Notes under the pieces: model-generated
What the model was told of the DNA's origin: nothing
What the model saw: the letters and a program-made list of their open reading frames with translations, nothing else
Database searches by the model: none
Shown here: one piece after another, positions 4,332 through 26,409 of the stretch
How positions within the stretch are numbered: position 1 is the stretch's first letter
Layout of the letters: every line of letters starts with the position of its first letter
Assembly: GCA_946641515.1 (NCBI GenBank)
Contig: CAMPBT010000002.1
Location: 129,471 to 193,470, forward strand
Direction of reading: 5' to 3'
DNA: 64,000 nt
DNA from: an uncultured Bacillales bacterium
Lineage (GTDB): Bacteria > Bacillota_I > Bacilli_A > RFN20 > CAG-449
Translations under genes and position numbers: made by a program

Positions 4332-4407
4332 TGGTGGAGCTGAAGAGGATCGAACTCTCTACCTCCTGAATGCAAATCAGGCGCTCTCCCAGGTGAGCTA
4401 CAGCCCC
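4332..4407 (-). tRNA. tRNA-Ala (anticodon UGC)
   Basis: Reverse complement reads GGGGCTGTAGCTCACCTGGGAGAGCGCCTGATTTGCATTCAGGAGGTAGAGAGTTCGATCCTCTTCAGCTCCACCA. It folds as a cloverleaf with the G3:U70 Ala identity pair and an encoded CCA. Confidence 0.9.
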
Positions 4408-4448
4408 ATATGTATATCCACAGTCCGCGAGGGACTGATGTAATTAAA

Positions 4449-4525
4449 TGGTCGGGAAAACAGGATTTGAACCTGCGACACCCTGGTCCCAAACCAGGTG
4501 CTCTACCAAGCTGAGCTATTTCCCG
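4449..4525 (-). tRNA. tRNA-Pro (anticodon UGG)
   Basis: Reverse complement reads CGGGAAATAGCTCAGCTTGGTAGAGCACCTGGTTTGGGACCAGGGTGTCGCAGGTTCAAATCCTGTTTTCCCGACCA, with anticodon loop TTTGGGA. Confidence 0.9.
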
Positions 4526-4533
4526 AAATTGCA

Positions 4534-4610
4534 TGGCGCGCTAAGCAAGAATCGAACTCGCAACCTCCAGATTCGTAGTCTGGCACTCTATCCAGTTGAG
4601 CTATTAGCGC
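4534..4610 (-). tRNA. tRNA-Arg (anticodon ACG)
   Basis: Reverse complement reads GCGCTAATAGCTCAACTGGATAGAGTGCCAGACTACGAATCTGGAGGTTGCGAGTTCGATTCTTGCTTAGCGCGCCA, with anticodon loop CTACGAA. Confidence 0.9.
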
Positions 4611-4692
4611 AATGCTTGTTAATAGTACAACTTCTAGATATTTTTTTCAAGAGTTTTTCTAAAGAATTTTTAGGTTTCTCACTTATTTGTAA

Positions 4693-4767
4693 TGGAGGTT
4701 CCTAACGGATTCGAACCGATGGTCATTGAGTTGCAGTCAATTGCCTTACCAACTTGGCTAAGGAACC
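4693..4767 (-). tRNA. tRNA-Cys (anticodon GCA)
   Basis: Reverse complement reads GGTTCCTTAGCCAAGTTGGTAAGGCAATTGACTGCAACTCAATGACCATCGGTTCGAATCCGTTAGGAACCTCCA, with anticodon loop CTGCAAC. Confidence 0.88.
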
Positions 4768-5179: not shown

Positions 5180-5518
5180 CTAGAATTCTTCATCAGGAAT
5201 TAATAACATAAATAATCCAGCTAATAATCCATTAAAAATTAAGCAAACAATTCCAATACCTACTAAATCATCTCTATTATTCGCAGAATTTAATTTGTTT
5301 AAACCGATAATACCTGTAATTAAAGGAATAATCATCCAGAATTCAACTATAATACTAAGGATTAAAAAAACTTTAGCAAGAGTGTGGAATGTAGTAGGTT
5401 TATTTCCACTATAAGATACATCAATAGTTTCTGATGCCTTATTTACAGCTTTTCCACATGACGGACAGAACTTTGAATCTTCATCAAGTAATGCACCACA
5501 ATATCTACAATATTTCAT
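5180..5518 (-). CDS. Zinc-ribbon membrane protein, tandem paralog of the preceding gene
   Basis: MKYCRYCGALL...CPSCGK zinc ribbon plus hydrophobic helices; same architecture as 4845-5165. Confidence 0.5.
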   Translation of the reverse strand: MKYCRYCGALLDEDSKFCPSCGKAVNKASETIDVSYSGNKPTTFHTLAKVFLILSIIVEFWMIIPLITGIIGLNKLNSANNRDDLVGIGIVCLIFNGLLAGLFMLLIPDEEF

Positions 5519-5580
5519 AATATAAATCCCCTCACGTAAATACTTTTATTTATAATAACACATTTATTTTATAATCAATA

Positions 5581-6393
5581 CTATTTTATATAAGCCTTAT
5601 AAAGAACTTTTTCAAATTTAACACCATATGAATGGTCTTTATCAAGTTTAGTATCGTTGATGCAATCAACAATAAATTGAGTTGCATCATCTAAAGTTTC
5701 TTGCATTGATTTATTATTTAATAAGTTACCGATGATAACTGAGGAGAAAATATCTCCAGTACCGTGATATGATGGTTCAACTTTCTCTTTTAAGGAGATT
5801 ACTGTGTTTTGATTAAAACGTGCAATTGCACCAATCTTATTACTAACTTCATAACCTGTTAAAATAACATTTTTTGCACCTAAAGCAAGTAATTTGTCAA
5901 GTAAAGTATTAATGAATTCTTCATCTTGCTTTTCTTGATAAGGAGTATCAGTTAAAAAGCAAGCTTCAGTAATATTAGGTAAAATATAATCCGCGACAGA
6001 ACAAATTCTTCTCATCCCTTTAATAATATCTTCACCTAGTCCATAATACATCTTTCCATGATCTGCCATAGCAGGGTCTACAAAGAATAATCCATTCTTA
6101 GTTAATAAAGAATTTTTAACATCTAAAATATAATCAAATTGAGAAGAAGCACCTATATAACCTGTATATAAAGCATCTAATTTAATATTTTCACTCTTCC
6201 AATGATTAATAATTTTTGGCATTTCATCTGTTAAATCATGAACAGTAAAGCCTTTAAATCCACCAGTATGTGTAGATAAAATTGCAGATGGTAAAATAAC
6301 AGTTTCATGACCATAGCTAGATAAAATAGGTAATGCTACAGTAGTAGAGCATTGACCATAGCAAGATATATCTTGAATAGTTAATATTTTCAT
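5581..6393 (-). CDS. pdxK: Pyridoxal/pyridoxine/pyridoxamine kinase (PfkB-family vitamin B6 kinase)
   Basis: MKILTIQDISCYGQCSTTVALPILS...HTGG..VDPAM..GTGD pattern typical of PdxK/PdxY. RBS GAGGAAAC present. Confidence 0.7.
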   Translation of the reverse strand: MKILTIQDISCYGQCSTTVALPILSSYGHETVILPSAILSTHTGGFKGFTVHDLTDEMPKIINHWKSENIKLDALYTGYIGASSQFDYILDVKNSLLTKNGLFFVDPAMADHGKMYYGLGEDIIKGMRRICSVADYILPNITEACFLTDTPYQEKQDEEFINTLLDKLLALGAKNVILTGYEVSNKIGAIARFNQNTVISLKEKVEPSYHGTGDIFSSVIIGNLLNNKSMQETLDDATQFIVDCINDTKLDKDHSYGVKFEKVLYKAYIK

Positions 6394-13018: not shown

Positions 13019-14929
13019 ATGGCAAATTACGAAGATAACAAAATTGTCGATTACGAATCAAATACTTCTCTATACAAGATGGATGAAAAAAAAGATAAGA
13101 AACACATAGTAAAAGAAGTTTTATTTTGGGTCTTCTTCCCTATAGTATTCTTACTATTAAGTGCGATTCTTATTTTCTACATGGATTTAACAGATGGTCC
13201 ACTCATCTTCTTCATTTTAATGTTACTACTCTTAGTAACGCTTGCAGTACTTCGTATCATCTTTAGAAAAAAGAAATGGTATATCGGGGTTGCCACTTGG
13301 ATAGGATTTATTGTATTAAGCACTTTAATTCTAGATTTTTCTAAACCAGGTCTAGAATATAGACCTGCAGTATTAAATGCAAGTCCAGAAAAGACCGAAG
13401 TACTCTCTTTAAAAGATGGTAAAGTTCAAGGCGTTTATAACGAAGATAAATCAGTAATGGTATATGCTGGTATTCCATACGCTAAAGCACCTATTGGTGA
13501 CTTAAGATGGAAAGAGCCTCAAGATGTAGAGCCTTGGAATGATGTACTAGATTGTTCATATTTTAGAGCCAAATCAATGCAAAAAACATATGATTCAGTT
13601 ACTAATAATTTAGTAGATATATACGCTCAAAAATCATGGCATCCAAATTATTTAGAGCAAAAGATTGAAATCTCATCTGAAGATTCTCTCTACGTCAATA
13701 TTTGGAAACCTAATACAACTGAAACTAATTTACCTGTTCTTGTTTATATCCACGGAGGTTCATTAACTACCGGCTCTCCTTCATTTTATGCATATAATGG
13801 AGAAAATATGGCCAAAAACGGCATTATTCAAGTTAATATTTCTTATCGTCTTGGAGTATTTGGTTATCTAGCATTAGAAGAACTTCAAAATGAATCTCCT
13901 AACCATACTACTGGAAACTATGGATTACTCGATCAAATCAAAGCTCTTGAATGGATAAATGAAAATATCGAATCCTTTGGAGGAAATAAAAACAATATCA
14001 CTATTGCAGGTGAATCTGCAGGTTCTTCTTCAGTAAGCGCAATATGTGCTTCTCCACTTGCAAAAGGTTTATTCCAAAAAGCTATTGGAGAATCTTCTTC
14101 AGTAGTTCTTACTACTCCTCCACATACATTTAGAACATTAGAAAGTGCTAAAGCAGTAGGAAGATCCGTCTTAACTGAATTTAATTGTAAAAATGTCAGT
14201 GAATTACGTAAGATTTCCGCGGACGAATTAGTTAATACAAAATCCACTAACTCTTCAATGACAGTTGATGGTTATGCTCTTCCTAAAACACCATATCAAC
14301 TCTATTTAGATGGAGAAGCAAGTGATGTCCCATTATTAAATGGTTTTAACTCAATGGAAGCAGATGCATTCACTGTTCCAACATATTTATCTTCTGGTCA
14401 ACCAAATGTTTCTAACTCTAAAGCTAGATTAATTACAGTATTTAATGATGAAGATATCGTTAATAAAATGATGGCAACTCAGTCTTGGAATAACGACGAA
14501 GAAGCATTTAGATCATTTAACAATATTATTGCAACATACTGGTTTGCTCATCCTCATTATTCTTGGAGTAAAGCAATTAAAGAAAATTATTCTTCACCAG
14601 TCTACACATATTATTTTGATAAAGAAAATGGATATTATTCAGGCTACCATTCAGGTGAACTTCCATATGTATTTAATACATTAAGTCGTAATAAGAATTT
14701 AACTTTCGCATATGATGAATCTGATTACAATCTAGCAAAAACTATGAATTCAGCCTGGGCAGCATTCATTAAAACCGGTAACCCTTCAACTTCATCATTA
14801 ACTTGGGAAGAATGGGACAAAGACCAAACTAACGTTATGCATTTTGGTAGCACTGTTGAAATGATGAAAGATAAATATTCTGATTTATATAAAATCTTTG
14901 AAGAATATTATTCTAAAGCTTCAGTTTAA
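13019..14929 (+). CDS. Type-B carboxylesterase/lipase family protein with N-terminal multi-TM anchor
   Basis: Oxyanion-hole motif VLVYIHGGSLTTGS and nucleophile-elbow motif GESAGSSSV (GxSxG). About 110 N-terminal residues form 3 hydrophobic helices. RBS GAGG. Confidence 0.75.
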   Translation: MANYEDNKIVDYESNTSLYKMDEKKDKKHIVKEVLFWVFFPIVFLLLSAILIFYMDLTDGPLIFFILMLLLLVTLAVLRIIFRKKKWYIGVATWIGFIVLSTLILDFSKPGLEYRPAVLNASPEKTEVLSLKDGKVQGVYNEDKSVMVYAGIPYAKAPIGDLRWKEPQDVEPWNDVLDCSYFRAKSMQKTYDSVTNNLVDIYAQKSWHPNYLEQKIEISSEDSLYVNIWKPNTTETNLPVLVYIHGGSLTTGSPSFYAYNGENMAKNGIIQVNISYRLGVFGYLALEELQNESPNHTTGNYGLLDQIKALEWINENIESFGGNKNNITIAGESAGSSSVSAICASPLAKGLFQKAIGESSSVVLTTPPHTFRTLESAKAVGRSVLTEFNCKNVSELRKISADELVNTKSTNSSMTVDGYALPKTPYQLYLDGEASDVPLLNGFNSMEADAFTVPTYLSSGQPNVSNSKARLITVFNDEDIVNKMMATQSWNNDEEAFRSFNNIIATYWFAHPHYSWSKAIKENYSSPVYTYYFDKENGYYSGYHSGELPYVFNTLSRNKNLTFAYDESDYNLAKTMNSAWAAFIKTGNPSTSSLTWEEWDKDQTNVMHFGSTVEMMKDKYSDLYKIFEEYYSKASV

Positions 14930-16919
14930 TAGTTCCCTCTTCATCAGTTCTTCTATAAGGTAAATTTAATTTTTCTAAACGTACAACCACTTCTTTATTC
15001 GGGTGGTTGTATTTATTTTTTAAGCCACAAGAAATAATACTTATTTTTGGTTTATATGTATTTAATAATTCATATGAAGATGATGTAGATGAACCATGAT
15101 GTCCTAGTTTTAATATATCTACTTTTAATTTTGGATAGTCGTTAACTATCTTTTTTTCTATGCTCGTAGGTGCATCTCCCATTAACATAATCCCTTTATT
15201 ATTAATTGAAGTATATAAAACTAAGGAATAATCATTTTCTTCTTTCCACATTGATGAATAAGTATTTAGATTAAAGAATTTAATATCAGTAAATGATTTT
15301 ACTTTAAAATTATTTTCTTCAATTATTTCTCCTATATAAAAATGTTCTTTTAAAGATTCTAACGCTCCAAAATGGTCATAGTCATGATGAGTAATAAAGA
15401 CTGCATCCAGTTTATATATTCCGTTCTTCTTAAAATAAGGAATTAATGTTTCTAAGGCAAGATCTATAGAACTAACTCCTCCAGTATCAATTAGATATGA
15501 CTTACCTTTATTAACAATTAAGGTTGAATCACCTTGTCCTACATTAATAAAAGAAATATATGAGCTATATTTATTTTCTATCGGTAATAAAGAAATTAAT
15601 ATTAATGTAGTTAATCCTCCTAAAGAATATAAAGTCTTCTTTTTTCTTTTAGTTTCAATAAAATAAATACCTAAAAATAGGAATAAATAATATAAAATAA
15701 CAAGACCTATATTAAATCTAGAAGTATAGATTTTTATATTAACTTTATCAAAATTTACTAGTAAAAAATAAAAACCATTAGATAAGATTTTAAAGATTGG
15801 CCATAAAGGTATAAGAAGGCCAATTAAGCCTAAAATAAAAATTATTAAAATAAGAGGACTAATTACTAATGCAAAAGGTAATGACAATAAACAAAAATAA
15901 CCATTACTAATTAGTAACAAAGGAATGAAATATAAATTGATAATAACAATATAATAAAACTTTCTTTTATCAGTTCTAAAAGTTAAGGCTCCCTCTTTAG
16001 AATACATTAGTAGTAAATATAATGGTAAAGAATAATAAAAATTAATAGATGAAAAATAAGATGGAAATATTAATCCTATAAAAATATAAGTTATCCCTAG
16101 CAAATCTATTTTAGATAATTTATTTTTAAAAAAATTATAATTTATAAAAACTAATATTTTTAAGAGTACTAATTTAATTAATGACAATTTATAATTTGAA
16201 ATAATTAAAAAGAAAATACTAAAGAAAATACTCACTTTATTTATTGTCTTTTCTTTACATTTTATACCTACTATTTTTTCAATAATCTCAAGTAAGAAAT
16301 AAACGTGGAAAGATGATATTGACAAATAATAACTAAGCGAAGAAGAATATATTAAAGACGAATAATCTTTTGATGAAGATAAATTAAATAATAAAGTCGA
16401 TAGGATAGATTTAGTATTAGTATCATATAAACTTAAATTATTATTTATTAAATGTTTGATTCTAAATAACGATAAAAAATGTGGAGTAATTGATGCATTA
16501 TTAATCATCTTTTTTACTCCATATGTTTTTAAATATTCATTAAAATTAAACTGACTTTCGTAATAAGTAAATGCTGCTTTTTCAACTTTTCCATCCACAG
16601 TTAAAATATCAAATACTTCATAAGTATTTAACTCGTTATAAACATAATATCTGCCGCTTATAGTTTGAAGGATGAAATAGGAATTTTTAGAAACAATTAC
16701 CACTCCAAAATGTGAGTCATAACTTAAATAAATTAAAGTTAAAAGTTCTAAAGATAATCCAAGGATGAAGAATATGCATGATAATATTATACTTCTCTTT
16801 GTAGATTTACAAAAATAACTGAAAACAAAAAGCAAGACTATCCCTAGAACTTTTATATACCAATGGTTAAGAAAGCTGACTCCTAACCAAAAGTAAGCAA
16901 AGAATAATAAGAAATTCAT
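14913..16919 (-). CDS. comEC: DNA internalization competence protein ComEC/Rec2
   Basis: Polytopic membrane region plus C-terminal metallo-beta-lactamase domain (VGQGDSTLI, ITHHDYDHFGAL). Confidence 0.85.
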   Translation of the reverse strand: MNFLLFFAYFWLGVSFLNHWYIKVLGIVLLFVFSYFCKSTKRSIILSCIFFILGLSLELLTLIYLSYDSHFGVVIVSKNSYFILQTISGRYYVYNELNTYEVFDILTVDGKVEKAAFTYYESQFNFNEYLKTYGVKKMINNASITPHFLSLFRIKHLINNNLSLYDTNTKSILSTLLFNLSSSKDYSSLIYSSSLSYYLSISSFHVYFLLEIIEKIVGIKCKEKTINKVSIFFSIFFLIISNYKLSLIKLVLLKILVFINYNFFKNKLSKIDLLGITYIFIGLIFPSYFSSINFYYSLPLYLLLMYSKEGALTFRTDKRKFYYIVIINLYFIPLLLISNGYFCLLSLPFALVISPLILIIFILGLIGLLIPLWPIFKILSNGFYFLLVNFDKVNIKIYTSRFNIGLVILYYLFLFLGIYFIETKRKKKTLYSLGGLTTLILISLLPIENKYSSYISFINVGQGDSTLIVNKGKSYLIDTGGVSSIDLALETLIPYFKKNGIYKLDAVFITHHDYDHFGALESLKEHFYIGEIIEENNFKVKSFTDIKFFNLNTYSSMWKEENDYSLVLYTSINNKGIMLMGDAPTSIEKKIVNDYPKLKVDILKLGHHGSSTSSSYELLNTYKPKISIISCGLKNKYNHPNKEVVVRLEKLNLPYRRTDEEGTIKLKL

Positions 16920-19146: not shown

Positions 19147-19863
19147 TTACTCTTCAATGTAGTCAAAACGTTTTGAATTCATTTGGATATTTAAATTACC
19201 ATTGATTGCACGTAATTCATCAATTAATTCTTTTTGAGAAACTCCATTTTTAAGTTCAATTGTATAAGATAAAGTAAACATTGTACCTAAATCTGAAGTT
19301 CTAATTTTCTTTAAGAATACCTTATTTGTATATTTCTTAAATGTATCTACAAAGCATGTTTCATAATCAATATCTTCTGGAATAGTAACTTTTAATGAAT
19401 ATTGATTTCTTGAAACAAATGGGAAGTTGATAAATTTTAATACAACTAAGACAACGATTAATAGGGCAACAATAATTACTGCATATCCTACAAAGCCTAA
19501 ACCTAATGCTGTACCTAAAGCAGTCATAAAGAATAAATAAGTTAATTCTTCTGAAGATCTAGGAGCACTTCTCCATCTAGTCATTGTGAAGATGCTTGCA
19601 ACGGCTACCCCTGCTCTTAAAAGTTTAGCCTCTGTATCTGTCGCACTTAATACTCCAGTTAAATAGAAAGCAATTAACATAAGTGCAGTTGCAACAAATG
19701 GATAAATAACTAAAGTAATTGTATATTCTCTAGAATAGCCTTGTTCTTTCTTTAGTAATGCATAAACTACTGAGAAAACAAAACCTAAACCTAAAGAACT
19801 AAGTAATAAGACAATAATTTTCCAAGCTTCGATTGTCTCTAAAGATAAAATTGATCCAAACAT
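19147..19863 (-). CDS. DUF4956-like membrane protein (partner of VTC-domain protein)
   Basis: N-terminal TM helices and a C-terminal soluble domain, immediately downstream of the VTC-like gene. The family assignment comes from the remembered gene pairing, not an alignment. Confidence 0.4.
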   Translation of the reverse strand: MFGSILSLETIEAWKIIVLLLSSLGLGFVFSVVYALLKKEQGYSREYTITLVIYPFVATALMLIAFYLTGVLSATDTEAKLLRAGVAVASIFTMTRWRSAPRSSEELTYLFFMTALGTALGLGFVGYAVIIVALLIVVLVVLKFINFPFVSRNQYSLKVTIPEDIDYETCFVDTFKKYTNKVFLKKIRTSDLGTMFTLSYTIELKNGVSQKELIDELRAINGNLNIQMNSKRFDYIEE

Positions 19864-19867
19864 ATTA

Positions 19868-20590
19868 TTACTCCTCTCCACATAATTTGCTATTTACGTA
19901 ATAGTTCTTATATTCAGTACCATATTTTGAAAAAGATTTTGGTCTAATTGAACATTCATTAAGTGCTCGTGCTAGCCATAAAGGATAATTACTAACATAT
20001 TTTATTTCTAAGATATATTTATCTTTATCAAGTAAATTATCCTCATAATCTACACATTCAAATGATGGATTATCTCTATTTGTATGAATGTTGTTATCAA
20101 AAGTAATTCTTAATTCACTATTAGTTTTATCAAATAACGCTAAGCGATCATAAGATAAATAAACTTTAGGAATTAATTTATATCTTTTTAATACCCAACC
20201 AATTTCTTTAACTGCTTGTTGTTCTTGAAATGAATTTCTAACAGGTTCAACATTATCATTTATAAATGAATCAAGTTCATCACCTGAAAGAGTTATTCTT
20301 CTTTTACCAACAACACCGTTATATTTCTTTTTAACTTCAAGGAAGTAATTATTCATTCCTGTATATTTTCTAACTCTAATCTTTTCTTTATATTCTGGAC
20401 TTTGCAATGATTTACGAATCAATAAATCATCGGAGGTATCGTAATATACATTATGAATTGTATAAGTTTTTTCATTTTGACAATATGGATCAAAATCCAT
20501 ATGTGCAAGTAAAATACGTAACAAAGCATTCTTTTGCTCTTCAGTTACGATATACTTTTTTTCTACTCTACGGAATGATAAAAGTGCCAT
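19868..20590 (-). CDS. VTC (polyphosphate polymerase)-domain-containing protein
   Basis: FRRVEKKYIV...VYYDT..LLIRKS...PEYKEKIRVRKY pattern, as seen in bacterial VTC/CYTH-like triphosphate tunnel proteins. Confidence 0.55.
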   Translation of the reverse strand: MALLSFRRVEKKYIVTEEQKNALLRILLAHMDFDPYCQNEKTYTIHNVYYDTSDDLLIRKSLQSPEYKEKIRVRKYTGMNNYFLEVKKKYNGVVGKRRITLSGDELDSFINDNVEPVRNSFQEQQAVKEIGWVLKRYKLIPKVYLSYDRLALFDKTNSELRITFDNNIHTNRDNPSFECVDYEDNLLDKDKYILEIKYVSNYPLWLARALNECSIRPKSFSKYGTEYKNYYVNSKLCGEE

Positions 20591-20648
20591 ATTATTACCT
20601 CCTTTCGATGTTATAAAATATGTACAACTTAAAAATTATTTTTATTGG

Positions 20649-21266
20649 TTAAAAAATGTTTTTTAGGTCTAATAAATTACAAATTATGTAATCTGATACA
20701 CCTTTTCCAAACTTGTTATCTTGGTATTTAGCAAAGCCATTTTTAAGCCAAACTGTTGTAAAACCTAATTCTTTACTTGGAACAATATCATTTTGAATAA
20801 TATCACCAATCATTACTGATTCACTTGCCTTAGCATTAGCCATATTTAAAACTCTAATAAAGAATTCTTTATTAGGTTTATTTACGCCCATTTCAGCAGA
20901 AGAACCTACAACATCAAAATAATCTCTAATACCATATGATTTTAATCTATCTTCAGTACCTAGAGGTTGATTAGCGATAATTCCGAGTTTATATCCTTTA
21001 TTCTTTAAATATTTTAAAATCTCTGGTGCTTCATCTAGTAAAACATCATATTCACTAGGCCAAGGAGCTTTTTTTAGTTTAAAATATTTTAAAGCTTCAT
21101 CTTCTCCATTTAGGCCTAATTTTTCTAATTCCATACGCTTTTCTTTATATTGATCAAAGGTAATACTTGTTCCTTTAATCATATTTTTTGCGCGTTCATC
21201 ATATGTTCTTTCTTCATTAACTAAAGTAGAACCAATGTCAAAAAATATCCATTTAATATTATTCAT
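20649..21266 (-). CDS. HAD-superfamily hydrolase (subfamily IA-like)
   Basis: Motif I FFDIGSTLV and motif IV VMIGDIIQND. Confidence 0.7.
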   Translation of the reverse strand: MNNIKWIFFDIGSTLVNEERTYDERAKNMIKGTSITFDQYKEKRMELEKLGLNGEDEALKYFKLKKAPWPSEYDVLLDEAPEILKYLKNKGYKLGIIANQPLGTEDRLKSYGIRDYFDVVGSSAEMGVNKPNKEFFIRVLNMANAKASESVMIGDIIQNDIVPSKELGFTTVWLKNGFAKYQDNKFGKGVSDYIICNLLDLKNIF

Positions 21267-21344: not shown

Positions 21345-21893
21345 TTATATAGCTTCTTCTAATTCTTCATCTTTATTATCTACAAAGAACTTAATCATTG
21401 GTTTCTTTAATGCAAAATATAAAGGAATACCTACTCCATATATAGCAAGAGCTTCTCCTCCGCAGACAACCCCAAAAGTAAGCCAATATGCTCCAGGATT
21501 ATTTTCAATAAATCCATAAATTAAAAATGTGACTGGGACTAAGAAAGCATTCGCAATTACTGCAACTAAACCAAATAATGGTAATCTAAAATAATCTTTC
21601 TTAAAGAATTTACCAACAAGTATAATCCATACTCCACCTAAAATAGTAGCGCTTGTTCCAATTACTGCGTCCCAAGGACCAATACCACCAAGTAATAAAT
21701 TGAATAAGAAGCAACCAACAGAGCATCCAATTACTACTTCTGGAACAAATAATCCAAGTACTAATAAGCCTTCAGCAAGTCTAACGTTAACCATAAATCC
21801 AGATGCTAAAGGCCCTTCAATAGCACACATTGCGAAATATAATGCTCCAATGAGTGCACTTAGTGTCATTCTTTTAACAATACTTTTCTTCAT
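21345..21893 (-). CDS. Small 6-TM membrane protein, ECF-transporter S-component-like (QueT-like family is only a guess)
   Basis: ~183 aa, almost entirely hydrophobic. Start at MKKSIV with RBS AAAGGAGA. A structured leader lies upstream. Confidence 0.4.
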   Translation of the reverse strand: MKKSIVKRMTLSALIGALYFAMCAIEGPLASGFMVNVRLAEGLLVLGLFVPEVVIGCSVGCFLFNLLLGGIGPWDAVIGTSATILGGVWIILVGKFFKKDYFRLPLFGLVAVIANAFLVPVTFLIYGFIENNPGAYWLTFGVVCGGEALAIYGVGIPLYFALKKPMIKFFVDNKDEELEEAI

Positions 21894-21898
21894 ATAAA

Positions 21899-21937
21899 AA
21901 ATCTCCTTTGTGCCCAAATTGAAAACATAGGAGATTT
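21899..21937 (-). promoter_or_regulatory. SD-sequestering hairpin in the leader of the 21345-21893 gene
   Basis: Perfect 9-bp inverted repeat AAATCTCCT...AGGAGATTT with a 21-nt loop. The 3' arm contains the AGGAG ribosome-binding site 8 nt before the ATG. Confidence 0.5.
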
Positions 21938-22059
21938 ATTATATAAAAATAAAAAATAGTCCTAGTTTTGTTTAAAGGAAGGATGGTTCATGAACTCCCT
22001 AGTCTTACGACTTTATATATCATAACTAATACATTATTATTTTTCAATAAATTTAAACT

Positions 22060-22205
22060 TGAACAGAAAAACTCCCTTCGCCAAAGCAAAGGGAGTTCTC
22101 CTGAAGTTTAAATGCCCATCAATCAAGCATTAGCACTTTGCTCCTATCGAAGTAAGTTGCTGGTGGATCATGAGGCTTGCCCCTCCCCACACTCTTAATG
22201 GTAGT
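22060..22205 (-). ncRNA. Candidate small RNA or riboswitch-like element of unknown class, with its own promoter and terminator
   Basis: Locally GC-rich core (GTGTGGGGAGGGGCAAGCCTCATGATCCACCAGCAAC) in an AT-rich intergenic region. It starts just downstream of a minus-strand TTGCTA-16-TATAAT promoter (22208-22235) and ends in the hairpin AACTCCCTT-TGCTTTGGCG-AAGGGAGTT plus a U-run (22062-22098). A second promoter-like TTGAAA-17-TATGAT lies between it and the downstream gene. Confidence 0.35.
22062..22098 (-). terminator. Rho-independent terminator (ends the candidate small RNA and czcD read-through)
   Basis: 9-bp GC-containing stem followed by TTTTTCTGTT on the minus strand. Confidence 0.6.
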
Positions 22206-22207
22206 TA

Positions 22208-22235
22208 TATTATATAATAGATAAATCAAATAGCA
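22208..22235 (-). promoter_or_regulatory. Putative sigma-A promoter (TTGCTA, 16 nt, TATAAT) driving the candidate small RNA
   Basis: Hexamers read on the minus strand. Confidence 0.35.
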
Positions 22236-22286
22236 AAGGATAAAAACATATTTAATCAATGTTTGTTAGACAAGAACAAATAATCT

Positions 22287-23192
22287 TTATTTCTCACGAT
22301 ATGGATTAACATGAATTTGACAGTGTTTAATATCTGGATAAGTAGCTTCTAAATAATCATGAATAGAATCCGCGATTAAATCAGATTCAATTAAAGTAAG
22401 ATTCTTATCTAAACAAATATCTACATCAACATAAATCTTATTCGCGAATTGTCTAGTTTTTAAAGTTTGAATTTCTTTAACATCTTTAAACTCTTCAATA
22501 GATTTTTTAATTTTACTAACAATCTCATCTGGAGCAGCTTTATCTACTAATTGATTAACTGCTTCTTTTTCAATATCAAATGCAACTTTTAAAATAAATA
22601 AGCAAATAATTAAAGAAGCAATAGGGTCAAGTAAAGCAAAGTTTCCACCAATCATTAAACCAATTACACCAAAAGTAGAACCAATTGAAGATAATGAATC
22701 AGATAAATGATGGAAGGCATCTGCCTTTAATGAGCAAGAATTAAGTTTTTTTGCAATTCTATATGTATAAATGAACATAAAGCCTTTAATAAGAATAGAA
22801 AGAATTGCGCTAATTAAAGCAAGATACGCTAAATTACTAGGCTCAATCTTTTCTCCTTGAACAAAAGCAATAATTGTTTTTACTCCAGAATACCCAATAC
22901 CTAAAGCAGTTATAGCAAGTAATATGCCTAAAAATATAGAAGCAATAGATTCAAATCTTTCATGACCATAAGGGTGGTCAACATCACTTTCTTTTGAAGC
23001 AATACGTGCACCAATCATCACAATGAAAGTAGTAAATACATCAGATAAAGAATGAACAGCATCAGAAATCATAGAAGAAGATGAAGCAAGTAAACCTGCC
23101 ACAAATTTAAGTGCCGATAAAACAACATTCCAAACGATAGTTACTATCCCTACTTTATGAATAGTTTGTTCATACGATAATACTTTTTTCAT
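22287..23192 (-). CDS. czcD: Cation diffusion facilitator family divalent-metal efflux transporter
   Basis: Six TM helices with HSLSD and H..D CDF metal-site motifs (SDAVHSLSDVFTT, AFHHLSDSLSS) and a C-terminal cytoplasmic domain. RBS AAAGGAG. Confidence 0.8.
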   Translation of the reverse strand: MKKVLSYEQTIHKVGIVTIVWNVVLSALKFVAGLLASSSSMISDAVHSLSDVFTTFIVMIGARIASKESDVDHPYGHERFESIASIFLGILLAITALGIGYSGVKTIIAFVQGEKIEPSNLAYLALISAILSILIKGFMFIYTYRIAKKLNSCSLKADAFHHLSDSLSSIGSTFGVIGLMIGGNFALLDPIASLIICLFILKVAFDIEKEAVNQLVDKAAPDEIVSKIKKSIEEFKDVKEIQTLKTRQFANKIYVDVDICLDKNLTLIESDLIADSIHDYLEATYPDIKHCQIHVNPYREK

Positions 23193-23199
23193 AAATAAA

Positions 23200-23350
23200 A
23201 AACTCCTTTCCCTTCGCTAGAATAAGGAGTTCTATATATTATATTGATATATAAAACACCTATGAGATATATCCGTCCCACAGGTGTTATTATTTCCTGT
23301 TGCCGCTAGGCCCGACTGCATGAATAATCATCGTCTGATCAGATTGTAAT
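23200..23350 (-). promoter_or_regulatory. Candidate NiCo (czcD-motif) metal riboswitch with terminator-type expression platform in the czcD leader
   Basis: On the minus strand: GC-rich structured element (TGCAGTCGGGCCTAGCGGCAACAGG...CACCTGTGGGACGG) ~100-150 nt upstream of the czcD ATG, then hairpin ACACCTGTGGGACGGATATATCTCATAGGTGT plus a U-run, then a second helix AACTCCTT...AGGAGTT that pairs with the RBS. The czcD motif is known to precede CDF transporter genes in Firmicutes. Confidence 0.45.
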
Positions 23351-23511
23351 GTAGCATATAGCATTGCAAAGAGATGCCATTATCATATTGTGAATTTTCT
23401 AACTTGTCAATATGGGCAAAAGATTATCTAAAAAGTTAGTTTTTGCTAATTATTGTCATAATTATATTATTAGCATTATAAATAAATATGTTATACCAAA
23501 AAGCATTGGAA

Positions 23512-24036
23512 CTAAACCCCAACGTCTAATAAACTATTTCTTTGATTATTGCTACGAATTCTATCTGTAATATTATCAATTGCAATTACTAATGATAAAT
23601 AGAACATATAATGTTCTTCATCATCAATATGAAGGACAAATGAGTCTCTTAATGAAATCATTCTAGATACATGGCCTACTTCTTTACCATTAAGAACAAT
23701 ATGATAATCAAAACCAAGAATATTACCAGTAATTTCCATATCACCGAATTCACATTTTACATAATATTTACTATGTAAGAAGTTAAAAATTCTTCTCTTA
23801 ACAACCGCAACTTTTTCATGTTCACTTGAGTCATAGACAAATGCGCTGTATCTAAATAATCTCCAGAACTTATTTCTAACAACATATTTAGTGTTACCAT
23901 TTAAGTCTTGAACATATTTTTTACTAGTTACTGTCCAAAATTTACCTTTAACGAAAGCAATATCATTTTCGTTTAAATCTTTAACAACAGTTGAACCTCT
24001 TAAAGAAATCCATTTATTTCTGATTGCTATATCCAT
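23512..24036 (-). CDS. LURP-one-related / YxjI-like (tubby C-terminal-like, DUF567) protein
   Basis: 174-aa soluble protein with an alternating hydrophobic pattern (FWTVTSKKYVQDLNGNTKYVVRNKFWRL, EFGDMEITGNILGFDY) reminiscent of the family. Assigned from memory only. Confidence 0.4.
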   Translation of the reverse strand: MDIAIRNKWISLRGSTVVKDLNENDIAFVKGKFWTVTSKKYVQDLNGNTKYVVRNKFWRLFRYSAFVYDSSEHEKVAVVKRRIFNFLHSKYYVKCEFGDMEITGNILGFDYHIVLNGKEVGHVSRMISLRDSFVLHIDDEEHYMFYLSLVIAIDNITDRIRSNNQRNSLLDVGV

Positions 24037-24294
24037 ATATTATATCTCCTATTACCTGTTACTTTTATAATAAAAAGAATTTCAAAAAAAGGCAATATGC
24101 TAGAATCATTGTTGTTTTTGCATAATGGAGTTTAAAAACAATTTTAAGCATCTATTCATAATTTAATTTTTTTGTTATTAATACATATTTTAAATAATTA
24201 AAAGAGATGAATCCAAACACTCTAACTGTCAAGTGAATGAATAAACATCTCTATAACAATGAAATAACATATTTAGTAACGCTACATTTTGAAG

Positions 24295-24630
24295 TTATTT
24301 AAAAGTATCTCTCCATCTATATTTAGGATTTTCTTTTAATTTGTTTTGGTATTCTTGTTTTAAAATATTAACAGTTTTTTCATTTCTATCACCAATAGCG
24401 TCATAATCCAAAACTTGTTTCAAATCATATACCCATCCACAATGGCTACAATGAACATTATATATTTCAATCGGATCAGTTATTCTAACTTTTTCTCCAT
24501 TAGTTGGATCTATTCTATAAGTCTCGACCTCATCATCTTTAGATTCGTTAATAAACCAATCTAAATCATCAAATTCTTCTTTGTCACACACTGGGCATTT
24601 AAATGGGAATCTTATTTTTTCTTTTTCCAT
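24295..24630 (-). CDS. Cysteine-rich zinc-ribbon protein (CPxC...CxHCGW, CPCC-family-like)
   Basis: FKCPVCDKEEFDD and VHCSHCGWVYD motifs in a 111-aa protein. A palindrome GTGTGACACAC sits ~20 nt upstream of its RBS. Confidence 0.4.
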   Translation of the reverse strand: MEKEKIRFPFKCPVCDKEEFDDLDWFINESKDDEVETYRIDPTNGEKVRITDPIEIYNVHCSHCGWVYDLKQVLDYDAIGDRNEKTVNILKQEYQNKLKENPKYRWRDTFK

Positions 24631-24723
24631 TGTATTACTCCTTTCTTATTACGTGTGTCACACTGCCATAAATACAACAAAAATTTTTAAAAACAGTTTT
24701 GATGCAAAGCCAAATTAAGAATG

Positions 24724-25770
24724 TTATTTTAATCTAATATAATATGTTGACTTACCAACGCCTTCTTTTCTTATAACGCCTGAATCACATAATTCTTTTA
24801 AACTTCTTTCGATACTAGTTGATGATAATGAAGGCACGAGTTCTAGTATATCTCTCTTTGTAAATTTTCCCAGTTTTGAATTAACTGCCATTCTTACCAC
24901 TTCAATACTAGGCTTCTTGTCTGACACTAATTCTACTCTTTCTTCAAAATCATTATATGCACTAACAATTGTACTTAACAAATATTTAATAAATGGAGTA
25001 GCGTCATCTTCATTTTCGTGCCATCCAATTTGAGAATCATATAATGCATCATAATATAAATCTTTATTCTTAGCTATCTTAGCTTCAAGTGATATATACT
25101 TTCCTACATAATAACCAGAACGATATAGAAGCAGTGTCGTTAATAATCTTGACATTCTTCCGTTCCCATCAATAAAAGGGTGGATACATAAAAAGTCATG
25201 AATGAACAGCGGAATTAAAATAAGTGGATCTACTACTCCTTCACCAAGAGCTCTATTGTATTCATCGCATAATTCTTGCATTGCGATTGGTGTCTCAAAT
25301 GGTGATAATGGAGTGAATAAAGTATATGACTTACCATTTTCATTAGTTGCACTAATATAATTTTGGACATTCTTATATTTTCCACCATACGAAGTTGATG
25401 TATGAGACAACAATACTTTATGTAATTGAAGAATAAAATTAGGGGTTATAGGAATTGAATCAAAATTTTCATGTACAATGTTTAGTGCATCTCTATATCC
25501 TGCAATTTCTTCTTCAGCTCTATTTTTAGGAGCCGTTTTTTCATTCACTAATTGTTTTAGTCTAGTATTAGTTGTCCTAATACCCTCAATTTCATTAGAT
25601 GATTCAGTACTTTGTATTTTTGCAATAATAACTAATTTTTCTAATTCTTCAGGCTTTTGCTTTAAGAACAATTGTTGTTTACCTTTTTCTTCATGGATTT
25701 GAGTCAAATAATTAATTATCTTGATATCCCAAGTTTTATTTTTTAAGTTTGAGTAGTTAAATTTCTTCAT
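24724..25770 (-). CDS. Fic/DOC family protein (putative AMPylator) with N-terminal inhibitory motif and C-terminal winged-helix
   Basis: Canonical Fic motif HPFIDGNGRMSRLL. An SNEIEG segment fits the class-II inhibitory helix consensus (S/T)xxxE(G/N). The C-terminus ...ILELVPSLSSTSIERSLKELCDSGVIRKEG looks like a winged helix-turn-helix (wHTH). Confidence 0.8.
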   Translation of the reverse strand: MKKFNYSNLKNKTWDIKIINYLTQIHEEKGKQQLFLKQKPEELEKLVIIAKIQSTESSNEIEGIRTTNTRLKQLVNEKTAPKNRAEEEIAGYRDALNIVHENFDSIPITPNFILQLHKVLLSHTSTSYGGKYKNVQNYISATNENGKSYTLFTPLSPFETPIAMQELCDEYNRALGEGVVDPLILIPLFIHDFLCIHPFIDGNGRMSRLLTTLLLYRSGYYVGKYISLEAKIAKNKDLYYDALYDSQIGWHENEDDATPFIKYLLSTIVSAYNDFEERVELVSDKKPSIEVVRMAVNSKLGKFTKRDILELVPSLSSTSIERSLKELCDSGVIRKEGVGKSTYYIRLK

Positions 25771-26335
25771 TTTTCTCACCATCCTTATTATTTACGCACC
25801 AATTATTTCACTTTTGGTGGGAAAAATCAATTATTCGTGCTTTTTTGATAATAGTTTATTATATAGATGCTCGCATTTTTACAATCTTTCTCGTAAAACT
25901 GAATACCAAATGAGAGAATAAATAAAATTTTTTCTCCTCATATCAGTGAATTTCTCGTCAATAACATTATTTTTGGTGCGTAAACCCTTTTTATAATTAT
26001 ATTTATAAACTCTAAGTTTATATGTTATCATTGCAAAAAATAAAATTACACTCTAGTCTATAAGGCTAGAGTTTTTAATTTGTAAAAACTGTCACGATTG
26101 TCACGTGTCACGTGGGGGTATTTATAAAAATTTATATTTCTTCTCTTATATATAGTAAATAGTAGTTTAACGATTAATAATAATTTAACGATTTAATTTT
26201 GTATATAAATGCTATATATACTACTACTGCTCTATTTATTGTAGAAATACCCTATGAATCATTATTATTTGCAGTATTTATACCTAAAAAAGAAAAAATA
26301 GCCAATACTTACGTATCAGCTATACTTAACTCTAA

Positions 26336-26409
26336 TGGTGCCCCAACGCGGAATCGAACCACGAACGGATCCTTACCATGGATCTGTTATGCCATTTAAC
26401 TATTGGGGC
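26336..26409 (-). tRNA. tRNA-Thr (anticodon GGU)
   Basis: Reverse complement reads GCCCCAATAGTTAAATGGCATAACAGATCCATGGTAAGGATCCGTTCGTGGTTCGATTCCGCGTTGGGGCACCA, with anticodon loop ATGGTAA. Confidence 0.85.

What the first reader, a model, noticed from the sequence alone, without database searches (positions are those of the whole stretch)
22060..22235. Independently promoted and terminated GC-rich small RNA candidate between czcD and a membrane-protein gene
In an intergenic region that is otherwise >75% AT, a ~140-nt stretch has a GC-rich core (GUGUGGGGAGGGGCAAGCCUCAUGAUCCACCAGCAAC...GGAGCAAAGUGCUAAUGCUUGAUUGAUGGGC). It has a good minus-strand promoter (TTGCTA-16-TATAAT) immediately upstream and a strong intrinsic terminator at its end. 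A second promoter-like element (TTGAAA-17-TATGAT) follows before the downstream gene, so this looks like a discrete sRNA rather than a simple 5' UTR. I could not match it to SRP, 6S, T-box, TPP, SAM, glycine, cobalamin or preQ1 consensus sequences by eye. It may instead be a riboswitch aptamer with terminator platform controlling the S-component-like gene.
Basis: seen in the sequence. Interest (0 to 1): 0.6.

Follow-up and report, generated by a model that had tools for sequence, protein, structure and literature searches.

The report
Orphan SAM riboswitch lacking P4 helix
The GC-rich stretch is a SAM-sensing riboswitch of the well-known SAM-I class, in a natural short form without its fourth helix; it is ordinary in kind but has no gene of its own and sits just upstream of the separately promoted queT gene.

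Summary
On the minus strand, a GC-rich core lies between a sigma-70-like promoter and a strong hairpin with a U-tract.

It is not an unclassifiable sRNA. Rfam SAM-I (RF00162) matches 22204..22113 at 39.5 bits (E 1.5e-7), below the gathering score of 44.4 because the P4 helix is missing. Eleven related P4-less aptamers were found: five metK leaders or MAG loci, all above Rfam's cut-off, and six phage or mobile contigs.

A model built from five relatives, without the window, hits the window once (73.5 bits, E 2e-19). P1, P2 with the K-turn, P3, the pseudoknot and all SAM-contacting bases are kept.

Two things are unusual here:
- **No dedicated gene.** The terminator is followed 17 nt later by queT's own conserved promoter and a preQ1-I-like leader. 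Homologous queT and czcD loci lack the SAM element.
- **Antiterminator lost.** The family's antiterminator pairing is -4.7 kcal/mol here versus -10 to -16 in five relatives. The terminator is about twice as stable (-29 versus -15 to -17).

Best reading: an orphaned SAM-I cassette that makes a ~137-nt terminated RNA and also terminates czcD transcripts. SAM-gated read-through into queT is possible but unproven. It is a new member of a known kind.

The parts
22209..22236 (-). Sigma-70-like promoter of the SAM unit: -35 TTGCTA at 22236..22231 and -10 TATAAT at 22214..22209. The inferred transcription start is near A22202, 1 nt before helix P1.
   Evidence: 10 of 12 positions. Blastn identity with phage locus L035 runs through the -10 box. 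Relatives have comparable promoters 5-30 nt upstream of P1.
22112..22206 (-). SAM-I-class aptamer without P4, a three-way junction. P1 is 22201-22197 with 22120-22116. P2 with the K-turn is 22192-22162. P3 is 22161-22132. The pseudoknot is CAAG 22179-22176 with CUUG 22127-22124.
   Evidence: Rfam RF00162 scores 39.5 bits, E 1.5e-7, with the 17 P4 positions deleted. The leave-one-out model R2 scores 73.5 bits, E 2e-19, as the only hit in the window. Across 12 distinct sequences, 94% of cells are paired and 7 pairs show compensatory change.
22064..22103 (-). Intrinsic terminator: an 18-bp stem (CAGGAGAACUCCCUUUGC / GCGAAGGGAGUUUUUCUG), loop UUUG, and U-tract 22071-22067. It is also the first terminator downstream of czcD.
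   Evidence: -29.2 kcal/mol, versus -14.8 to -17.3 in five relatives. No hairpin with a U-tract lies between the czcD stop at 22287 and the promoter. czcD homologues carry their own terminators.
22019..22047 (-). queT's own promoter (TTGAAA-17-TATGAT). It is not part of the SAM unit but defines the unit's 3' boundary.
   Evidence: Equivalent promoters are conserved upstream of queT homologues that lack the SAM element.
21956..22003 (-). A conserved preQ1-I-like aptamer in the queT leader. It is followed by a hairpin that sequesters the Shine-Dalgarno sequence (about 21937..21899; GGAG at 21906-21903) and the queT start codon at 21893.
   Evidence: Rfam PreQ1 scores 19 bits here and 23.4 bits in L001, against a gathering score of 39. 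The sequence is nearly invariant in queT leaders of homologues sharing 54-64% protein identity.
21345..21893 (-). The queT gene (ECF S-component, queuosine-precursor transporter family). It would receive any read-through from the SAM unit.
   Evidence: Pfam PF06177 QueT, 96 bits.
22287..23192 (-). The upstream czcD (CDF cation efflux) gene. Its transcripts must run into the SAM aptamer and end at the SAM unit's terminator.
   Evidence: Pfam and NCBIfam matches. A NiCo riboswitch lies at 23352..23271.

Best explanation
**Identity.** The element is a SAM-I class (S-box) riboswitch cassette of promoter, aptamer and terminator. Its aptamer is the natural minimal form that lacks helix P4. The same P4-less form controls metK in related uncultured Bacilli/'Mollicutes' and occurs in phage and mobile DNA.

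**State in this genome.** The cassette is orphaned, with no open reading frame of its own. Transcription starts near 22202. The aptamer (P1, P2 with K-turn, P3, pseudoknot) can bind SAM. The transcript ends at the very stable terminator near 22066, giving a ~137-nt RNA.

**Regulation.** The pairing between the P1 3' strand and the terminator's 5' strand acts as antiterminator in the relatives. It has been lost here and the terminator lengthened, so termination is probably largely constitutive.

**Other roles of the hairpin.** It also ends czcD transcripts and insulates queT. queT is driven by its own promoter and a preQ1-I-like translational leader. Residual read-through would add a minor, possibly SAM-repressed, input to queT.

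**Shown:** class identity, architecture, conservation of the ligand pocket, absence from orthologous loci, and the energetic difference in the expression platform. **Inferred:** SAM binding, the transcript ends, constitutive termination, and the orphan history.
For: **Class identity**
- Rfam SAM scores 39.5 bits, E 1.5e-7, aligned end to end with only P4 deleted.
- Model R2, built from five relatives without the window, gives one hit in 64 kb: 73.5 bits, E 2e-19, with no non-standard pairs.

**P4-less relatives**
- L021 and L022 came from the genome scan.
- L029, L030 and L033 lie upstream of metK.
- All five exceed Rfam's cut-off of 44.4 bits (49-60 bits).
- Six more lie in IMG/VR contigs.

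**Structure support** (12 distinct sequences)
- 94% of cells are paired.
- 7 pairs show compensatory change (reached by 2 of 500 shuffles).
- The covariation score is 0.195 versus 0.090 in shuffles (0 of 500 reach it).
- Slid controls pair in 28-46% of cells.

**Ligand pocket**
- J1/2 AAGAG, GCAAC, GUGCUAAU and the P1 A-U/U-A pairs are all present.
- The window differs at only 3 of 51 columns that are invariant in the other 11 sequences. All three changes preserve pairing: A.G to U.G, A-U to G.U, and G-C to G.U.

**Orphan status**
- queT homologues keep the promoter and preQ1-like leader but not the SAM element.
- czcD homologues have their own terminators.
- Only the aptamer is shared with the phage loci.
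- No ORF lies between the terminator and queT's promoter.

**Expression platform**
- The antiterminator duplex is -10.0 to -16.4 kcal/mol in five relatives, versus -4.7 in the window.
- With the terminator's 3' strand not yet made, the antiterminator state is 4-8 kcal/mol better than the P1 state in relatives, and only 1.5 kcal/mol better in the window.
- The terminator is -29.2 kcal/mol in the window versus -14.8 to -17.3 in relatives.

**Literature**
- Natural SAM-I aptamers without P4 exist and can function (PMC12714719).
Against: - The promoter, every ligand-contact base, the pseudoknot and the terminator are intact. The element is identical in four independent contigs of this species that are 99.0-99.6% identical overall. 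That argues for ongoing function rather than a decaying relic.
- An alternative antiterminator exists: J1/2 plus the P2 5' strand pairing with the terminator's 5' half, at -15.9 kcal/mol. However, 63 of 500 composition-matched shuffles do as well.
- All statements about switching come from thermodynamic prediction, not kinetics or experiment.
- No transcript data are available.
Confidence: 0.55

Rival explanations
1. A working heterologous tandem arrangement. The SAM-I unit is a transcriptional OFF switch. Its read-through transcript runs through queT's promoter and preQ1-I-like translational switch. queT and the downstream genes would then get an extra promoter that fires only when SAM is low, with translation still gated by preQ1 (NOR-like logic).
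For: - The unit is co-oriented with queT, only 17 nt upstream of queT's -35 box, with no intervening ORF or second terminator.
- The aptamer and promoter are intact.
- A candidate alternative antiterminator of -15.9 kcal/mol exists.
- Queuosine synthesis uses SAM (QueA, QueE; established knowledge).
- A tandem SAM-I plus preQ1-II arrangement was once reported and could not be re-found (PMC9481103).
Against: - queT has its own conserved promoter.
- The SAM element is absent from all other queT loci examined, so the link is not conserved.
- The family-type antiterminator is lost and the terminator is about twice as strong.
- The alternative antiterminator is no better than composition-matched shuffles (63 of 500). 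It would also require unfolding P2, which is made early.
- An OFF switch at high SAM gives no obvious logic for a queuosine-precursor importer.
Confidence: 0.22
2. A riboswitch-derived sRNA that acts in trans. The terminated ~137-nt RNA would act on other mRNAs or proteins, with or without SAM dependence, as reported for Listeria SreA/SreB.
For: - It is an independent promoter and terminator unit with no cis gene.
- The sequence is maintained intact.
- The precedent of terminated SAM riboswitch transcripts acting in trans is from my memory (Loh et al. 2009), not checked here.
Against: No target complementarity was searched for or found. The element was seen at this locus in only one species. 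Nothing in the sequence specifically indicates a seed region.
Confidence: 0.1
3. A SAM-I look-alike that has switched ligand, for example the spermidine-sensing SAM-I variants or an SAH or other SAM-derivative sensor.
For: - It scores below Rfam's gathering cut-off.
- Rare SAM-I variants with a new ligand exist (PMC10853860).
Against: - The spermidine variants keep P4 and change J1/2 (no AGAG) and the P3 internal loop (GCAAC becomes GG AAA CC). The window keeps AAGAG, GCAAC and GUGCUAAU.
- The low Rfam score is explained by the P4 deletion alone.
- P4-less relatives sit upstream of metK, the hallmark SAM-regulated gene.
Confidence: 0.04
4. A new, unclassified small RNA with no relation to riboswitches, or merely the czcD terminator with a chance GC-rich neighbour.
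For: Own promoter-like site and terminator. czcD lacks any other terminator.
Against: End-to-end match to SAM-I and to an independently built family model. Covariation-supported structure is shared with 11 relatives.
Confidence: 0.02

Closest known systems
SAM-I riboswitch / S-box leader (Rfam RF00162)
   Same: The P1, P2 (with K-turn GGA/UGA) and P3 helices, the pseudoknot between the P2 loop and J3/4, all ligand-contacting nucleotides, an intrinsic-terminator expression platform, and metK association in relatives.
   Different: Helix P4 is entirely absent, leaving a three-way instead of a four-way junction. P1 is short (5-7 pairs, starting 1 nt after the inferred transcription start). The score is 39.5 bits, below the gathering cut-off of 44.4. 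This copy has no regulated ORF and no family-type antiterminator.
Natural P4-less SAM-I aptamers noted in the RF00162 alignment (PMC12714719, citing Trausch 2014 and Heppell 2011)
   Same: The same kind of natural variation: deletion of P4 with an otherwise intact core.
   Different: Those described are chiefly from Actinomycetota. The group found here is in low-GC uncultured Bacilli/'Mollicutes' MAGs and in phage or mobile contigs.
SAM-I/IV and SAM-IV riboswitches (clan CL00012)
   Same: A SAM-I-like binding core without a P4 inserted between P3 and P1.
   Different: They carry a replacement hairpin 3' of P1 that forms a second pseudoknot with the P3 loop. No conserved hairpin or pairing of that kind occurs between P1 and the terminator in the 12 sequences. 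Rfam ranks RF00162 as the best clan member.
Spermidine-sensing SAM-I variants (PMC10853860)
   Same: Rare relatives of SAM-I with a terminator platform and OFF logic.
   Different: They keep P4 and alter J1/2 and the P3 internal loop. The window keeps the canonical SAM-binding bases.
SAM-I riboswitches without a downstream ORF: the Clostridium acetobutylicum antisense-RNA S-box (described in PMC2258182) and Listeria SreA/SreB (from memory)
   Same: A SAM-I unit whose output is an RNA rather than control of an adjacent coding gene.
   Different: Here read-through is in the sense direction relative to the next gene, so it is not antisense. No trans target is known.

Membership tests
SAM-I riboswitch (RF00162) | Score at or above Rfam's gathering cut-off (44.4 bits) | tested here: not met
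   The score is 39.5 bits, E 1.5e-7, and there was no hit in gathering mode. The shortfall is the deleted P4. Five P4-less relatives score 49.2-59.6 bits.
SAM-I riboswitch (RF00162) | Helices P1, P2 (with K-turn) and P3 at the consensus positions | tested here: met
   Full-length alignment to model positions 1-108. 94% of cells are paired across 12 sequences, with compensatory changes in P2a, P2b and P3.
SAM-I riboswitch (RF00162) | Helix P4 between P3 and the 3' strand of P1 (four-way junction) | tested here: not met
   17 model positions are deleted. Only AUU separates the pseudoknot strand from P1. The same holds in all 11 relatives. The literature states that natural SAM-I members without P4 exist (PMC12714719), so P4 is typical rather than obligatory.
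SAM-I riboswitch (RF00162) | Pseudoknot between the P2 loop and J3/4 | tested here: met
   CAAG 22179-22176 pairs with CUUG 22127-22124. All 12 sequences pair here, but the bases are invariant, so there is no covariation.
SAM-I riboswitch (RF00162) | Ligand-contacting nucleotides: the P1 A-U/U-A pairs, the J1/2 G, the GCAAC bulge region and the UGC of P3 (T. tengcongensis numbering A6, U7, G11, A45-C47, U57-C59, A87, U88; recalled from Montange & Batey 2006) | tested here: met
   All are present by direct reading of the alignment. The window departs at only 3 of 51 family-invariant columns, and each change keeps pairing. The identity of the contact positions rests on my memory of the crystal structure.
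SAM-I riboswitch (RF00162) | Binds SAM | not testable with these tools
   Requires in-line probing, ITC or transcription assays.
SAM-I riboswitch (RF00162) | Terminator and antiterminator expression platform that competes with P1 | tested here: inconclusive
   A terminator is present (-29.2 kcal/mol). The pairing of the P1 3' strand with the terminator's 5' strand is -4.7 kcal/mol, versus -10 to -16.4 in five relatives. An alternative pairing of -15.9 kcal/mol is not better than shuffles.
SAM-I riboswitch (RF00162) | Located upstream of methionine, SAM or sulfur metabolism genes | tested here: not met
   The next gene is queT, with its own promoter and leader. Relatives L022, L029, L030 and L033 precede metK.
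SAM-I/IV (RF01725) | A P4 hairpin 3' of P1 forming a second pseudoknot with the P3 loop | tested here: not met
   The linker between P1 and the terminator is 12 nt and unstructured in the window. No conserved hairpin occurs in relatives. After clan competition cmscan reported only RF00162, so RF01725 did not outscore it.
Spermidine riboswitch (SAM-I variant) | Altered J1/2 and P3 internal-loop nucleotides, with polyamine biosynthesis genes downstream | tested here: not met
   The window has AAGAG, GCAAC and GUGCUAAU, unlike the 13 variants in Figure S1 of PMC10853860. No polyamine genes are nearby.
preQ1-I riboswitch (RF00522), for the neighbouring queT leader element | Score at or above the gathering cut-off (39 bits), with the P1 hairpin and an A-rich tail ending in CUAG | tested here: inconclusive
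   Scores are 19 bits in the window and 23.4 bits in L001. Consensus blocks GUUC, AACC, UCC and AAAACUAGG are present. The element is conserved upstream of QueT in every homologous locus whose upstream DNA was held. The loop is 1 nt longer and the tail 3 nt longer than the model.

The most novel reading that the evidence does not exclude
The cassette may be a functional stand-alone regulator derived from a phage-borne P4-less SAM riboswitch, in one of two forms. It could be the first heterologous tandem involving a preQ1-I-type riboswitch, with SAM-gated read-through feeding a preQ1-gated queT. Or it could be a SAM-binding sRNA with no cis target. More broadly, this P4-less SAM-I subgroup may be a mobile 'promoter-riboswitch-terminator' module that phages use to tie small ORFan genes and DNA methyltransferase operons to host SAM levels.
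Probability: 0.2. Interest if true: 0.55.

Novelty: new member of a known kind. Interest (0 to 1): 0.3.

Why it matters
- **Annotation.** A real SAM-I aptamer is missed at Rfam's gathering cut-off only because it lacks P4. A subgroup model such as R1 or R2 recovers it with E around 1e-19 to 1e-21.
- **RNA structure.** It adds low-GC Bacilli/'Mollicutes' and phage examples to the natural P4-less SAM-I forms. These are useful as minimal three-way-junction aptamers.
- **Gene regulation.** It is a clean example of a riboswitch cassette detached from any gene, whose terminator now serves the upstream czcD gene. If it still switches, it would be a previously unlisted SAM/preQ1 tandem.
- **Side observation.** The closest relatives sit in phage or mobile contigs, ahead of ORFan genes and DNA methyltransferase operons. 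This may be the more interesting lead.

Tried and rejected
- **Rfam in gathering mode on the whole window** gave no hit at the locus. Only E-value mode revealed SAM-I.
- **Conserved queT 5' leader element.** Rejected: 20 queT-homologue loci from 8 proteins lack the SAM element.
- **Element travelling with czcD.** Rejected: the czcD homologues in L027 and L028 have their own terminators and no SAM element.
- **Spermidine-type variant.** Rejected by comparison with Figure S1 of PMC10853860.
- **SAM-I/IV.** Rejected: there is no 3' P4 or second pseudoknot.
- **Strict pattern scans** of the genome and metagenome collections found few members. The pattern required AAU in J3/4, whereas many relatives have AAA. 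A relaxed pattern found six more in the viral collection.
- **Integration-site repeats** between tRNA-Thr (26336-26409) and the element: none found. The tRNA-Thr next to queT in L007 and L010 has a different anticodon and orientation.
- **Homology among the small ORFs** downstream of the phage-borne riboswitches: none by BLASTP, Pfam or PHROGs.
- **GenBank phages:** no blastn match to the aptamer.
- **Other homology between the window and the phage loci:** only the aptamer is shared with any phage locus at this site (blastn). One unrelated tblastx match lies elsewhere (L037 with window 14928-15236).
- **Literature searches** for QueT plus SAM riboswitch and for MtaT returned nothing useful.
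- **L015**, whose 5' end matches the window right after the terminator but whose queT is only about 62% identical, is probably a low-coverage chimeric assembly. It was not used as evidence.

Full report
**1. The observation**

Everything lies on the minus strand.
- czcD (23192..22287) is a CDF efflux gene preceded by a NiCo riboswitch.
- The next gene, 21893..21345, is a QueT-family ECF S-component (PF06177, 96 bits).
- In the 393-nt spacer between them, GC rises to 0.43-0.52 at 22110-22199, against 0.18-0.25 on either side.
- A TTGCTA-16-TATAAT promoter-like site lies at 22236..22209, and a second site, TTGAAA-17-TATGAT, at 22047..22019.
- An 18-bp hairpin at 22103..22064, containing a U-tract, folds at -29.2 kcal/mol.
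- The stretch folds better than all 200 shuffles (z = -4.5).

The description is therefore correct. Promoter-like sites as such are not enriched in this AT-rich DNA (14 found, 11.8 expected).

**2. What it is**

Rfam at its gathering cut-offs reports nothing here. In E-value mode, the SAM-I family RF00162 aligns end to end to 22204..22113 at 39.5 bits, E 1.5e-7, against a cut-off of 44.4. The only large departure is that all 17 positions of helix P4 are deleted.

The following features are present:
- J1/2 AAGAG.
- The K-turn (GGA...UGA).
- P2b with a loop whose CAAG pairs with CUUG in J3/4 (the pseudoknot).
- GCAAC and GUGCUAAU in P3.
- The A-U/U-A pairs of P1.

By my recollection of the T. 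tengcongensis structure, these include every SAM-contacting base.

**3. Relatives**

| Source | Loci | Result |
|---|---|---|
| Pattern scan of one genome per species | L021, L022 | Both are P4-less SAM-I aptamers above Rfam's cut-off (49.2 and 59.6 bits). L022 precedes metK. |
| Leaders of three metK homologues (71-79% identical) | L029, L030, L033 | The same P4-less aptamer plus terminator (50-55 bits). |
| JGI metagenome scan | L023-L026 | Re-found only this species and the L022 type. |
| Relaxed pattern in IMG/VR | L034-L039 | Six further members. |

A covariance model built from the five non-window relatives finds exactly one hit in the 64-kb window. It is 22206..22112, at 73.5 bits and E 2e-19, with no non-standard pairs.

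On the 12 distinct sequences:
- 94% of cells pair.
- Seven pairs show compensatory change (reached by 2 of 500 shuffles).
- The covariation score is 0.195, against 0.090 +/- 0.013 for shuffles (0 of 500 reach it).
- Slid controls pair in only 28-46% of cells.

The window copy departs at 3 of 51 columns that are invariant in the other 11. Each change keeps pairing: A.G to U.G in P1, G-C to G.U in P2b, and A-U to G.U. The last one sits at the long-range pair that Barrick and Breaker predicted between the base 5' of the pseudoknot and the base 5' of the P1 3' strand (PMC2258182).

The closest relative is the phage-contig copy in L035, at 81-83% identity.

**4. Comparison with what is known**

- Natural SAM-I aptamers with very short or absent P4 are already noted in the RF00162 alignment. 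The authors state that SAM aptamers can function without P4 at reduced affinity (PMC12714719, citing Trausch 2014 and Heppell 2011). The missing P4 is therefore not new in kind.
- The element is not SAM-I/IV. No hairpin or second pseudoknot follows P1.
- It is not the spermidine-sensing variant. That variant keeps P4 and alters J1/2 and the P3 loop (PMC10853860).

**5. Context: why this copy is odd**

*(a) It has no gene.* The terminator ends at 22064 and queT's -35 box begins at 22047. No ORF lies between them.

*(b) queT has its own regulation.* Loci for eight queT homologues (54-64% protein identity) were retrieved. Every one with enough upstream DNA keeps the promoter and a nearly invariant 45-nt element, GGGAGUUCAUGAACCAUCCUUCCUUUAAACAAAACUAGGAC. 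All but the most distant homologue (P0011; L017-L020) also keep a hairpin that sequesters the Shine-Dalgarno sequence. None has the SAM element. Their upstream neighbours differ: an alcohol dehydrogenase, a tRNA, a GGDEF protein, an asparaginase. The 45-nt element is a sub-threshold preQ1-I match, at 19-23 bits against a cut-off of 39.

*(c) czcD homologues* have their own terminators and no SAM element. Here czcD has none, so its transcripts must end at the riboswitch terminator.

*(d) The expression platform differs from the family's.*

| Measure | Five bacterial relatives (L021, L022, L029, L030, L033) | Window |
|---|---|---|
| Antiterminator duplex (P1 3' strand, GAUGGGA(G), with the terminator's 5' strand) | -10.0 to -16.4 kcal/mol | -4.7 kcal/mol |
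| Antiterminator state versus P1 state | 4-8 kcal/mol more stable | 1.5 kcal/mol more stable, through a global refold that unfolds P2 |
| Terminator hairpin | -14.8 to -17.3 kcal/mol | -29.2 kcal/mol |

The window's terminator 3' strand (CGAAGGGAGU) is visibly related to the family's (CGAUGGGAGC). It has drifted together with its partner strand and away from the P1 3' strand.

A different candidate antiterminator exists: J1/2 plus the P2 5' strand pairing with the terminator's 5' half, at -15.9 kcal/mol. But 63 of 500 composition-matched shuffles do as well.

**6. Mechanism**

The best-supported reading is an orphaned SAM-I cassette.
- Transcription starts near 22202.
- The aptamer folds and can bind SAM.
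- The RNA ends near 22066, giving about 137 nt, largely regardless of SAM.
- The hairpin also terminates czcD transcripts and insulates queT.

Read-through gated by SAM into queT, a SAM/preQ1 tandem, remains possible. Sherlock et al. list the preQ1 classes among those never found in tandem. They could not re-find an earlier SAM-I plus preQ1-II report (PMC9481103). Such an arrangement would be new, but it is seen in one species only and lacks a convincing antiterminator.

A trans-acting role is not excluded.

Intactness argues against a long-dead relic. Four independent contigs of this species carry an identical element. Between the window and L013, six differences cluster in the 37 nt just upstream of the -35 box, and none occur in the next 600 nt. 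At about 1% overall divergence this is weak evidence.

**7. Verdict**

This is a known riboswitch class in a known natural short form, newly recognised at this locus. It is a new member of a known kind, with an unusual orphan context. Interest is modest. The side finding of P4-less SAM-I riboswitches in phage and mobile DNA is worth its own follow-up.

Noticed in passing
L034:4198-4287(+), L035:1035-1128(+), L036:13120-13210(-), L037:2103-2192(+), L038:14396-14485(+), L039:8302-8392(-): Six IMG/VR contigs carry P4-less SAM-I aptamers (83-93 bits with model R1). By eye, each appears to have its own promoter and a terminator/antiterminator. L034 is a phage: the riboswitch plus a 91-aa ORFan sits between tape-measure or lysin genes and baseplate genes. 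In L035 and L036 the riboswitch heads operons of small ORFans followed by C5 DNA methyltransferases. L038 and L037 carry serine integrases. The first downstream ORFs share no detectable similarity and have no Pfam or PHROG match. SAM-sensing control of phage accessory or methyltransferase genes may deserve its own study.
   Followed up: partly
window 21956-22003 (-) and about 21899-21937 (-): The queT leader has a nearly invariant 45-nt element resembling preQ1-I. Its loop is 1 nt longer and its tail 3 nt longer than the model. Rfam PreQ1 scores only 19-23 bits against a gathering cut-off of 39, so standard annotation would miss it. It is conserved upstream of QueT homologues sharing 54-64% identity. 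It is followed by a hairpin pairing AUCUCCU with the Shine-Dalgarno AGGAGAU.
   Followed up: partly
window 23271-23352 (-): A NiCo riboswitch (RF02683, 58.9 bits) with a terminator-like hairpin at 23288..23255 lies upstream of czcD. This is an ordinary, expected pairing.
   Followed up: no
L021:2611-2871 (-) and downstream: In an uncultured Bacillales MAG, the P4-less SAM riboswitch precedes an 86-aa ORFan and then a lipoprotein of more than 830 aa with leucine-rich repeats by eye (not run through Pfam). This is not a methionine or SAM gene. A membrane protein that looks NERD-like by eye (also not run through Pfam) lies upstream.
   Followed up: partly
L039, oriented coordinates 5277-5633: A phage or mobile contig carries a 118-aa ORF matching the N-terminus of MetK ([24 protein letters not shown]...). 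It lies about 2.4 kb downstream of the riboswitch, after a 732-aa highly acidic protein. It may be a split or frameshifted metK.
   Followed up: no
window 22249-22285: Six of the 31 differences between the window and the 99%-identical contig L013 fall in this 37-nt spacer, between the czcD stop codon and the -35 box. None fall in the following 600 nt: promoter, aptamer, terminator, queT leader and the start of queT.
   Followed up: yes
L015:1-60: A 975-bp low-coverage contig joins sequence identical to the window just after the terminator to a queT only about 62% identical at protein level. The switch point lies at the conserved preQ1-like element. This is probably an assembly chimera between two co-occurring species.
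   Followed up: partly
window 23512-26409 (-): Between tRNA-Thr(GGT) at 26336-26409 and czcD lie a Fic/DOC protein (24724-25782), a small Cys-rich protein (24295-24630) and a LURP-one-related protein (23512-24036). In relatives L007 and L010 a tRNA-Thr(CGT) sits directly next to queT, in the opposite orientation. No att-like repeats were found, so an island origin is unproven.
   Followed up: partly
window 19147-21266 (-); L001, L002, L013, L014: The gene order queT, HAD hydrolase, VTC-domain protein, DUF4956, EamA is conserved downstream of queT in L001 and L002. L013 and L014, which run off their contigs, show the first part of it.
   Followed up: no
window 4335-4767 (-): A cluster of four tRNA genes.
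   Followed up: no
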